Assembly: GCF_050920415.1 (NCBI RefSeq)
Contig: NZ_CP169309.1
Length of the DNA: 64,000 nucleotides
Origin: Escherichia coli
GTDB lineage: Bacteria; Pseudomonadota; Gammaproteobacteria; Enterobacterales; Enterobacteriaceae
Direction: 5' to 3' (one strand)
This document shows, piece by piece, positions 57,101-60,100 of this stretch. How positions within the stretch are numbered: position 1 is the stretch's first letter; each line of letters starts with the position of its first letter. The position numbers were made by a program.

Positions 57101-60100
57101 TCTTAATGACTTCGATGGACTCTGCAGGGCAACCATGAAGAATGGCCAGAATTTTATCAGGATGCTTAATTAGTAAAATTATTATATTTACAACGTTTGA
57201 AAAGAAACTTTTGCTATTTTTTATTTCATCGATTTTTTCCGCTGAAATGTTTACTAAGTTTTCATTTCCGGAAATGAAAAGCAATTTGCCATGGGGGCTT
57301 TTTTTAAATTGTTCTTCTGTTTTAGAAAAGACATCCTCTTTAAAAGGTGGCAACTCAGTACCAGTAATAAACGGTTTCAATAAATTCGAATTTGAAATTG
57401 TCATATCTTTGCTCCACTACAGGGTTATCCTGGAGCAGGTTGTACATAACCTCATGGGCAAAGAATACCAAAAATCGCTCATATCGATCGGGACAAATAT
57501 TTAACAAACTCAGCCCTGACATTGTGCAGCTTTTTCGCTGCGTAGTGTCAGGGCTGATGACTAACGACGTAACAAATAAAACAGATGCTTTAGTTCATCC
57601 ACACCGTAGCCGAAATGGCAGACAAAGCCAGAATCCCGTCCGTCAGTTGCCCATGCCCCTCCTTGCGTTGCCATTGCGCGACATTGAGTAACGGCGACGC
57701 GGGTAGCACCACTTCACAGGCTTCGCCACGGTTGATAGCCACCAGCACACGCTGCTGATTCAGCACGCGGACAAATACCACTACGTGATCTTCCGCATAT
57801 ACCACCTGGCAGCCACCACGACGCAGCGCATGGCTTTTCTTACGTAGCGCAATCATTCGCTGGTACAGCGCGAATAATGCCGTATCCTGTTTATCCACCT
57901 GCCAGGGGAACGGTTTACGGCAAAACGGATCGTTTTTGCCATCCACCCCCACTTCATCACCGTAATAAATACACGGTATGCCAGGCCAGGTAAGAAGCCA
58001 GACCACCGCCAGCGGCAGACGCGCGACATCTCGACCGAGAAGTGTTTTAAATCGCGCAGTATCGTGGCTGTCGAGCTGATTAAACATGCGCAATTGCTGT
58101 TGATGAGAAAGCCCTGCGCGGTAATTATCCATCCAGGCCATACAGGTTTGGGCGTCAATCTGCTGAGGATCGTAAGAGATATCAGTGTTGGCAAGAAATC
58201 CCCACAACGGGAATGTGAAGCCGCGATAGTTCATGGCGGCATCTTCCACATCGGCCTGTAACCATTGCCGTGCATCGCCAAAATGCTCTCCGACAATATA
58301 CGCTTCCGGCTGAGTTTCTTTCGCCGCTTCGGTGATCCCAGCAACGTGCTGCAAATTATTGCGCGCCCCACCCGCTTCTCCCAGCATATGCACCACATCC
58401 AGCCGCCAGCCGTCCATATTCCATGGTGCTTTCAGCCAATGGCGGACAATGCTGTCTTCCCCGCGATAAATTTCATTCACCAGACTTTCCGATTGATAAT
58501 CCAGCTTCGGCAGGCTGGCATAGCCCAGCCAGTCGAGCGCCGTGCCATCATCGCTAAATGAGTACCAGTCACGCCAGGGCGATTCGGGGTTGTGACAAGC
58601 GCCACCTGTCCCCCGATTATGTCGGTCAAACCAGGCATGGGAATCGCCACTGTGGTTAAACACACCGTCCAGCACCAGCCGCATTCCCATCTGCTGTGTA
58701 TTGTGTCGTAAACGCAGCAACGCCCCATCGCCGCCAAACTGCGGATCGACATGGCGATAATCCTCGGTATCGTATTTGTGTACGCTGGGGGCTTTAAACA
58801 CCGGATTAAGATACAGCGCCGTCACGCCGAGCTTTTTCAGATACGGCAGTTTTTCGCTGATACCGTCAAGATCGCCGCCATAGAACGTTGATCCACCCGC
58901 CTGCGCCGTGACCGGTTCATCCCAGTCACGCAATATGATCTCTTGTCCGGCTGCGTGATGGTAATAAACATGATCCTGTTCAGCTTCGCGAGGAAGACTA
59001 CGGGCGAAACGATCAGGGAAGATCTGATAAAAAATCTGATCCGCAGCCCATTGTGGGCCGATATCCGGGACATCGACGGCAAACTGCTCCAGTCGTGCTG
59101 GCGGCATTCGGCTGAAGCCCTGCGGTGTAAACCAACGCTGGCGATCGTGCCACAATAATTTGAAGCTATAGCGCCGCCGGGGTTGCCCAATGGAAATATC
59201 GATGGCCGCCCGCCATGCCGTGACACCAGGCTGGGGCTGACTGCGCTGCTTATGCATCGGTACTGACGTTTCTTCGTTATCGTTTTCTGTACGTAGCATA
59301 ATCCGCTGCGGTGGGTCTTCGCCTGTCAGCCACAGTGTAATGAGTAGTTGATCTTTGCTTTGTTTAACAAATGGGGGCACCGGCAGGTGCCATGCATTTA
59401 ACATCATAATTCCCCTGTGATGAAAATCTGATCACCTTGCCATAGCCTAATGCAGGATCACTCATCATCTGAAGGATATTTGGGGGAGGAGGACGGGGGC
59501 GGATAACTTTCGGAATAGCCGGATCAGGGCTTGCCTTGATCCGGCTTACAGAACGCAGTGATTAGTGATTTTCAGCCAGCTGACGATCGTGGCGGCGTTT
59601 AAACATCCAACCAATCAACAGCAGAACAATCCACGCGAAACCAACGTACAGCGAGATACGTGTGTCCGGATGATAACCAATCAATCCGATAATAAAGAGC
59701 AGGAAAATCAAACCGCCGATGGTCGTTGCTACCCCACCTGGTACTTTAAATTTCAGTGCCTTCACTTCTTCTGGCGGCAAACGGCGACGGAAAGCAATTT
59801 GCGACAGCAGGATCATAATCCATACCCACACCGTGGCGAAGGTTGCCAGCGAAGCGATCACCAGGAAGACATTTTCCGGCATGATGTAGTTCAGATATAC
59901 CGCAAACAATAGCGCGGTAGTCATCACCAGCACCGTGACCCACGGAATACCGCGACGCGAGGTTTTGCTGAAAATTTTCGGCGCGCTACCCTGCTCTGCC
60001 ATGCCGTGAAGCATACGACCTACGCCAAATACGTCACTGTTAATTGCTGACAGCGAAGCGGTCAGCACAACAAAGTTAAGAATGCTGGCGGCAAAAGTAA

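What the first reader, a model, noticed from the sequence alone, without database searches (positions are those of the whole stretch)
57511..57560. Compound hairpin between the orphan gene and malZ
11-bp arms CAGCCCTGACA/TGTCAGGGCTG enclose an inner hairpin (GCAGC-TTTTT-CGCTGC). It lies 30 bp downstream of the malZ stop on the minus strand, at the border of the inserted orphan gene. It could be the malZ terminator or a remnant of the insertion junction or attachment site.
Basis: seen in the sequence. Interest (0 to 1): 0.25.

Follow-up and report, generated by a model that had tools for sequence, protein, structure and literature searches.

The report
Terminator-like hairpin after malZ, inside insert
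A real, very stable DNA/RNA hairpin sits just after the malZ gene, but it belongs to a 1.65-kb strain-specific insert carrying an orphan gene and most likely acts as an ordinary transcription stop signal, not as an insertion scar.

Summary
The hairpin is real. It spans 57510-57557, with 12-bp outer arms (11 bp invariant across strains), a 4x4 internal loop, and a 5-bp inner stem with a 6-nt loop. Its folding z-score is -6.3.

K-12, another empty-site E. coli and E. fergusonii have the acpH and malZ stop codons only 4 nt apart. The whole stretch 55939-57589, hairpin included, is therefore accessory DNA. It is present in 1126 of 5426 complete E. coli genomes, and the hairpin is found once in exactly those genomes. 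It is not the native K-12 terminator.

There is no second copy at the other border, no terminal repeats, no recombinase, and no match in plasmids, phages or other species.

On the malZ-sense strand the stem (-31.9 kcal/mol) lies 32 nt after the stop codon and is followed by GUUUGUUAAAUAUUU. It was the strongest terminator-like candidate in the window in my own scan.

Best reading: an intrinsic-terminator-type or 3'-end hairpin that ends malZ transcripts and insulates the orphan gene. No covariation or transcript data confirm this. The finding is ordinary and of low interest.

The parts
57510..57557 (-). Compound hairpin: 12-bp outer stem, 4x4 internal loop, 5-bp inner stem, 6-nt loop. It is listed on the malZ-sense (minus) strand, where it is followed by a U-rich tract.
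   Evidence: Sequence read directly and reported as inverted repeat I1. Folding z = -6.3. The hairpin alone folds at -31.9 kcal/mol on the minus strand and -37.1 on the plus strand. The outer 11 bp are invariant in 28 independently anchored sequences.
57495..57509 (-). U-rich tract directly 3' of the stem on the malZ-sense strand: GUUUGUUAAAUAUUU (AUUUGUU... in most strains).
   Evidence: The TransTermHP-style tail score is -3.15 to -4.27 in my own scan. The other side of the hairpin (UGACUAACGACG on the plus strand) has no U tract.
57558..57589 (-). 32-nt spacer between the malZ stop codon and the hairpin. It forms the right end of the accessory segment.
   Evidence: It is absent from K-12, AVS0578 and E. 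fergusonii.
57590..59407 (-). malZ (maltodextrin glucosidase), the gene whose 3' end the hairpin follows.
   Evidence: ORF. RefSeq annotation of identical or near-identical loci.
55959..57404 (-). Orphan gene (481 aa, about 36% GC) with start codon 105 nt downstream of the hairpin. A GGAG ribosome-binding site lies at 57412-57415.
   Evidence: ORF and GC dip. RefSeq annotates it as a hypothetical protein. No family match in Pfam, PADLOC, PHROGs or NCBIfam. In 1.84 billion cluster representatives the only matches are its own cluster and fragments at 66-97% identity to it.
55939..57589 (.). Accessory segment of 1651 bp, replaced by 4 nt (AACG or GACG) in empty-site E. coli. It contains the orphan gene, its upstream spacer and the hairpin.
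   Evidence: Junction alignments. 1126 of 5426 genomes carry it. The hairpin region is found in exactly 1126 genomes, once each.
55357..55938 (+). acpH, convergent with the orphan gene and malZ. Its last two codons are CTC TGA in all sampled carriers and TTA TAA in both empty-site E. coli strains compared (K-12, AVS0578).

Best explanation
The hairpin is an intrinsic-terminator-type 3' stem-loop carried on a 1.65-kb accessory segment. That segment lies between the convergent genes acpH and malZ in about a fifth of E. coli genomes.

Proposed mechanism (inferred, not shown):
- Transcription from malZ runs 32 nt past the stop codon.
- The RNA folds into a -32 kcal/mol stem.
- The following U-rich tract (G/A)UUUGUU favours release of the transcript, or at least leaves a 3' end protected from exonucleases.
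- This ends malZ mRNA before the orphan gene, so the AT-rich orphan gene is insulated from maltose-induced read-through. malZ transcription also no longer runs into acpH, as it does in K-12.

Shown here:
- The structure exists.
- It belongs to the insert.
- It is single-copy.
- Its position and its strand-specific U tract are as described.
- Its outer arms are invariant.

Inferred: that it actually terminates or stabilises transcripts.
For: Position and strand:
- The stem begins 32 nt after the malZ stop.
- A U-rich tail is present only on the malZ-sense strand.

Stability:
- -31.9 kcal/mol for the hairpin alone.
- z = -6.3 for the region.

Terminator-like ranking:
- In my scan of both strands of the whole window for hairpins abutting a T-rich tail, this is the most stable candidate (dG -31.9, tail -4.27).
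- Structures with canonical terminator anatomy, such as the one ending at 60964, appear in the same list.

Contrast with K-12:
- K-12 has no comparable structure downstream of malZ.
- Its two stop codons are 4 nt apart.
- ExcludonFinder (PMC12288877) lists malZ-acpH among convergent overlapping transcription units of MG1655.

Conservation:
- The outer 11-bp arms are invariant in 28 BLAST- or protein-anchored sequences (13 unique).
- The loop varies in length (A5-A7, with or without GC).

Comparison with Salmonella:
- At the same spot, between tsaA and malZ, Salmonella has a canonical bidirectional terminator, AAAAGGCTCGCGAATGCGAGCCTTTTTT.
- A terminator just past the malZ stop is therefore a normal arrangement at this locus.

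Transcription start data:
- Cappable-seq in EDL933 found no transcription start for the orphan gene (EDL_RS02335) in 8 conditions (PMC10469882 supplementary tables).
- This is compatible with an insulated, mostly silent gene.
Against: - The U tract is interrupted (5 U in the first 8 nt). In most strains it starts 2 nt after the last pair.
- The hairpin is much longer than typical intrinsic terminators (48-51 nt with an internal loop).
- The tool's consensus terminator scan did not call it.
- There is no covariation: 15 of 17 pairs never vary, and one inner-stem change is uncompensated.
- Zero variable positions in the 22 arm bases, against about 2 expected from the spacer's variability (about 20 of 213 columns by my own count on the alignment), is not significant (Poisson P about 0.12, my estimate).
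- The plus strand folds even better (-37.1 kcal/mol), because G.U pairs close the internal loop. The strand on which the structure matters is therefore not settled.
- No transcript 3'-end data for this locus could be found.
Confidence: 0.55

Rival explanations
1. A passenger with no present function. On this reading the hairpin was the terminator of a neighbouring gene, or another structure, in the unknown donor. It arrived with the orphan gene's upstream region and persists because the segment is young and drifts slowly.
For: - The segment evolves almost neutrally. The orphan gene has dN/dS of 0.2-1.7, and it is frameshifted in 2 of 10 sampled genomes.
- The arms are not significantly more conserved than the rest of the spacer.
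- No covariation is seen.
- dS within the insert is only 0.02-0.05, so little time has passed in which a useless hairpin could decay.
Against: - A -32 kcal/mol stem followed by a U tract, placed 32 nt behind a transcribed gene, would be expected to affect transcripts whether or not it is selected for.
- No donor sequence is known, so the origin cannot be checked.
Confidence: 0.2
2. A cis-regulatory element of the orphan gene. Possible forms:
- An attenuator in a malZ-orphan read-through transcript.
- An RNase III processing site.
- A protein-binding palindrome upstream of the orphan promoter.
For: - It lies 105 nt upstream of the orphan start codon, on the same strand.
- No separate transcription start was detected for the orphan gene in EDL933, so read-through from malZ may be its only source of transcription.
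- On the plus strand the helix is a near-continuous 21 bp. From general knowledge, that is long enough for RNase III.
- An antisense start inside the orphan gene, at EDL933 487650(-), points towards the hairpin.
Against: - No regulator is encoded in the insert.
- The half-sites are 36 bp apart (start to start), which is unusual for an operator.
- All three mismatched positions being G.U-compatible on the same strand has a two-sided probability of about 0.25 if each transition falls on either strand at random. The plus-strand preference is therefore weak.
- Nothing could be tested directly.
Confidence: 0.15
3. A remnant of the insertion mechanism: a terminal inverted repeat, an attachment site, or an integron attC-like or IS200/IS605-like folded recombination site.
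For: - It lies near one border of the accessory segment, 32 nt from the junction.
- It is an imperfect palindrome of attC-like length.
- One RYYYAAC motif (ATTTAAC, 57499) lies beside it.
Against: - There is no counterpart at the other border and no direct repeats at the junctions.
- Only one core-like motif is present, on one side.
- The hairpin lies 5' of the gene, not 3' as an attC site would.
- No integrase or transposase is present.
- It is single-copy in all 1126 carrier genomes and absent from plasmids, phages and viral contigs.
- In this strain, sequence near-identical to an E. fergusonii record starts about 210 nt inside malZ, at about 57800, rather than at the insert border. This fits spread of the segment by homologous recombination through the flanking genes.
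Confidence: 0.04

Closest known systems
Rho-independent (intrinsic) transcription terminators of E. coli
   Same: - A G+C-rich stem-loop shortly after a stop codon.
- A U-rich tract on the sense strand only.
- A position between genes.
   Different: - The hairpin is 48-51 nt with a 4x4 internal loop, rather than a short simple stem.
- The U tract is broken (UUUGUU).
- Activity is untested.
Bidirectional terminator between tsaA and malZ in Salmonella enterica (L098, about 4409-4438)
   Same: It occupies the same genomic slot, just past the malZ stop codon, between malZ and a gene that E. coli K-12 lacks.
   Different: - The sequence is unrelated.
- The Salmonella structure is canonical: a 7-bp stem and 4-nt loop, flanked by an A tract and a T tract, so it can act in both directions.
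- The E. coli hairpin has a U tract on one side only.
REP/BIME extragenic palindromes of enterobacteria
   Same: Both are stable palindromes in 3' untranslated regions between convergent genes. From general knowledge, such palindromes can protect upstream mRNA from 3' exonucleases.
   Different: - REP elements occur in hundreds of copies with a shared consensus.
- This hairpin occurs once per genome, and only in carriers of the insert.
Integron attC sites and IS200/IS605 subterminal hairpins
   Same: Both are imperfect palindromes of about 50 nt next to an acquired gene.
   Different: - No paired core sites.
- It is on the wrong side of the gene for an attC site.
- No integrase or TnpA is present.
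- No second end exists.

Membership tests
Intrinsic (Rho-independent) terminator | Stable G+C-rich stem-loop in the transcript | tested here: met
   -31.9 kcal/mol on the malZ-sense strand. z = -6.3.
Intrinsic (Rho-independent) terminator | U-rich tract immediately 3' of the stem, on the sense strand | tested here: inconclusive
   The tract is GUUUGUUAAAUAUUU, with 5 U in the first 8 nt. Its tail score in my scan is -3.15 to -4.27. However, the tract is interrupted, it starts 2 nt after the stem in most strains, and the consensus scan did not call the site.
Intrinsic (Rho-independent) terminator | Located shortly downstream of a stop codon, on the same strand | tested here: met
   32 nt after the malZ stop codon.
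Intrinsic (Rho-independent) terminator | Compact simple hairpin (typically a 5-14 bp stem and a 3-8 nt loop) | tested here: not met
   17 pairs in two helices separated by a 4x4 internal loop, 48 nt in total.
Intrinsic (Rho-independent) terminator | Transcript 3' ends or measured termination at the site | not testable with these tools
   No supplementary files are held for the EHEC Term-seq paper (PMC7547250), so its data could not be checked. The supplements of PMC5597208 do not mention malZ, acpH or yajB.
REP/BIME or other repeated extragenic palindromes | Many copies per genome sharing a consensus | tested here: not met
   One place per genome in all 1126 carriers and none in the other 4300. 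In the window, the only matches are the two arms themselves.
Mobile-element end / attachment site | Matching repeat at the other border, or a target-site duplication | tested here: not met
   Border-to-border local alignment scores no better than shuffles. The junction sequences show no duplication.
Mobile-element end / attachment site | Associated recombinase or transposase | tested here: not met
   The only gene in the segment has no Pfam, PADLOC, PHROGs or NCBIfam match.
Integron attC | Inverse core RYYYAAC and core GTTRRRY flanking the palindrome, located 3' of the cassette ORF | tested here: not met
   A single motif on one side only. The hairpin is 5' of the ORF.
Rfam-described RNA families | Match to a curated covariance model | tested here: not met
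   No hit overlapping the hairpin at E-values up to 10.

The most novel reading that the evidence does not exclude
The hairpin may be a leaky, condition-dependent attenuator. It would couple an Escherichia-restricted ORFan, which has no detected promoter of its own, to MalT-driven malZ transcription. The orphan protein would then be made only when maltodextrins are present. The acquisition of this hairpin would also have dissolved the K-12-type malZ/acpH convergent transcriptional overlap.
Probability: 0.08. Interest if true: 0.35.

Novelty: new member of a known kind. Interest (0 to 1): 0.12.

Why it matters
The finding matters little beyond annotation. It gives a plausible 3' boundary for malZ transcripts in the roughly 21% of E. 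coli (including O157:H7) that carry this insert. It also shows that the insert is a self-contained unit of hairpin, spacer and orphan gene, rather than a scarred mobile element.

A minor point of interest concerns the two haplotypes. In K-12 the malZ and acpH stop codons are 4 nt apart and their transcripts overlap. Carriers have 1.65 kb and a strong hairpin between the two genes. The two haplotypes could therefore differ in antisense interference at acpH and malZ.

Tried and rejected
1. Native K-12 terminator: rejected. K-12 has a 4-nt spacer and no such sequence.
2. Second copy at 55939-55958 or terminal repeats: none found.
3. Repeated-element family: rejected, because it is single-copy in every genome.
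4. Rfam families: none.
5. Origin on a plasmid or phage: none found. The two 'plasmid' hits are 4.9-Mb chromosomes mislabelled as plasmids.
6. Same hairpin in other species:
   - The 11 GTDB hits and 43 of the 72 metagenome hits are unrelated hairpins that share only the 11-mer stem.
   - The other 29 metagenome hits are the E. coli locus with the same flanks.
7. Identifying the orphan protein to explain the hairpin:
   - No family match.
   - No relative in GTDB species representatives.
   - No distant homologue in 1.84 billion representatives.
   - The AlphaFold model was unusable (pLDDT 39.9), so no fold search was run.
8. Covariation test: uninformative, because the arms do not vary.
9. 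attC architecture: not met.
10. Sharp phylogenetic break exactly at the insert border, which would have hinted at site-specific insertion: rejected. The break is about 210 nt inside malZ.
11. Literature search for experimental 3' ends or a description of the locus: nothing was found, apart from the K-12 excludon listing and the EDL933 start-site tables.

Full report
**Setting**

The window is Escherichia coli DNA. The gene order here is as follows:
- tgt;
- queA;
- acpH (plus strand, 55357-55938);
- an AT-rich 481-codon orphan ORF (minus strand, 55959-57404);
- malZ (minus strand, 57590-59407);
- proY.

The finding concerns the 185-nt spacer between the orphan start codon and the malZ stop codon.

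**Observation**

The inverted repeat is real. The outer arms are TCAGCCCTGACA (57510-57521) and TGTCAGGGCTGA (57546-57557). The inner stem is GCAGC (57526-57530) and GCTGC (57537-57541), around the loop TTTTTC. Two 4-nt internal-loop strands (TTGT and GTAG) separate the inner and outer stems.

The 106-nt region folds at about -40 kcal/mol on either strand. That gives z = -6.3, and none of 200 shuffles folds as well.

The hairpin alone folds at -31.9 kcal/mol on the malZ-sense strand. On the plus strand it reaches -37.1 kcal/mol, because G.U pairs close the internal loop into a 21-bp helix.

Perfect inverted 11-mers within 40 nt are expected 0.67 times per 64 kb in Markov simulations. The window has 22 such hits at 8 loci, including this one.

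**Which side of the junction**

In K-12 (RV308) and in strain AVS0578 the acpH and malZ stop codons are 4 nt apart (...GCGTTATAA AACG TTAGTTCATCC...). Nothing resembling the hairpin is present there.

In this window and in O157:H7, 1651 bp (55939-57589) fill that gap.

Of 5426 complete E. coli genomes, 1126 carry the segment. A 131-nt query centred on the hairpin matches exactly 1126 genomes, once each. The hairpin therefore belongs to the accessory segment. It is not the native K-12 terminator.

All nine other sampled carriers, like this window, end acpH with CTC TGA. Both empty-site E. coli strains compared end it with TTA TAA.

A genome labelled E. fergusonii also has a 4-nt spacer (GGCA) flanked by its own divergent malZ sequence. 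The empty arrangement is therefore probably ancestral and the segment an insertion.

Salmonella and Citrobacter koseri carry a tsaA-like peroxiredoxin at this position. In Salmonella it is followed by a canonical bidirectional terminator just before malZ.

**Is it an insertion scar?**

No evidence supports this:
- There is no second copy in the window at up to 1 mismatch.
- The two borders align no better than shuffled sequence, scoring 8-9 against a null mean of 8.6.
- There is no target-site duplication.
- The segment is absent from phage records, from viral contigs and from genuine plasmids.
- The stem pattern outside E. coli hits only unrelated hairpins in distant phyla. All 29 E. coli-type metagenome hits have the same flanks.
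- Only one attC-like core motif is present, on one side.

The orphan protein has no Pfam, PADLOC, PHROGs or NCBIfam match. Among 1.84 billion cluster representatives the only matches are its own cluster and fragments at 66-97% identity to it. The AlphaFold model was unusable, with pLDDT 39.9.

In this strain, sequence near-identical to the E. fergusonii record begins about 210 nt inside malZ (at about 57800). It does not begin at the insert border. This fits movement of the segment by homologous recombination through the flanking core genes rather than site-specific insertion.

**What it most likely does**

On the malZ-sense strand the stem starts 32 nt after the stop codon. It is followed by GUUUGUUAAAUAUUU. 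The other side of the hairpin has no U tract.

I scanned both strands of the window for hairpins abutting a T-rich tail, using a TransTermHP-style tail score whose formula I recalled from memory. This site is the most stable candidate (dG -31.9, tail -4.27). Structures with canonical terminator anatomy appear lower in the same list.

K-12 has nothing comparable downstream of malZ. ExcludonFinder lists malZ-acpH among convergent overlapping transcription units in MG1655 (PMC12288877).

The best reading is therefore an intrinsic-terminator-type or 3'-end-protecting hairpin. It would end malZ transcripts and insulate the orphan gene.

In EDL933 Cappable-seq data the orphan gene (EDL_RS02335, 486501-487946) has no gene start site in eight conditions. 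An antisense start lies at 487650 (PMC10469882 supplementary tables).

**Limits**

- The U tract is interrupted.
- The hairpin is atypically long.
- The consensus terminator scan did not call it.
- In 28 independently anchored sequences (13 unique) the outer 11-bp arms never vary.
- The loop varies (A5-A7, with or without GC), and one inner-stem change is uncompensated.
- There is therefore no covariation.
- Zero variable arm positions, against about 2 expected, is not significant.
- The segment as a whole drifts almost neutrally. The orphan gene has dN/dS of 0.2-1.7, and it is frameshifted in 2 of 10 genomes.
- No transcript 3'-end data could be obtained.

**Verdict**

The junction or attachment-site half is not supported. 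This is an ordinary feature of a known kind and of low interest.

Noticed in passing
window 57800-59407 (and probably beyond, into proY): The 5' four-fifths of malZ in this strain is near-identical to malZ of a genome labelled E. fergusonii (CP099328.1, L099), with 0-1 differences per 100 nt. Against E. coli alleles its dS is about 0.3. The last roughly 200 nt of malZ and the insert are far closer to E. coli alleles than to that record. This looks like an inter-species recombination mosaic with a breakpoint near 57800.
   Followed up: partly
window 55959-57404: The 481-aa orphan gene is a true ORFan restricted to Escherichia and Shigella.
- It has no detectable homologues elsewhere.
- It has a length-variable Lys/Glu/Ala-rich repeat region (proteins of 466-493 aa).
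- Its dN/dS is near 1.
- It is a frameshifted pseudogene in 2 of 10 sampled genomes.
- The AlphaFold pLDDT is about 40.

   Followed up: partly
window 47830-49320: About 1.5 kb lies between tsx (46895-47827) and yajD (49324-49671). K-12 has only a short spacer here. The stretch holds two ORFs (301 aa at 47896-48801 and 138 aa at 48881-49297) with no Pfam or PADLOC match, and its GC content (0.49-0.55) is close to that of the neighbouring genes. O157:H7 instead has a RelE/ParD toxin-antitoxin pair between yajD and secF.
   Followed up: partly
L098 3583-4465 (Salmonella); L100/L101 (Citrobacter koseri): The acpH-malZ junction is a variable slot across Enterobacteriaceae.
- Salmonella and C. koseri have a tsaA-like peroxiredoxin gene there.
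- C. koseri has DUF3999 and DUF2339 genes in place of malZ.
- E. coli K-12 and E. fergusonii have 4 nt.
- 21% of E. coli genomes have the orphan gene.

   Followed up: no
L012-L014, L032, L033, L054, L055, L062, L069, L073, L089, L091, L092: A recurring 35-nt perfect palindrome, CAGCCCTGACAGGGTTTnnAAACCCTGTCAGGGCTG, appears in many unrelated environmental contigs, twice in L054. It shares only the 11-mer stem with the E. coli hairpin. Separately, a 48-nt hairpin is duplicated 169 nt apart in L058, L060, L067 and L068.
   Followed up: no
EDL933 NZ_CP008957.1 position 487650(-), roughly window 56255(+): Published Cappable-seq tables list an antisense transcription start inside the orphan gene in 6 of 8 conditions. 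It points towards the hairpin and the malZ 3' end. No sense start is listed for the orphan gene itself (PMC10469882).
   Followed up: no
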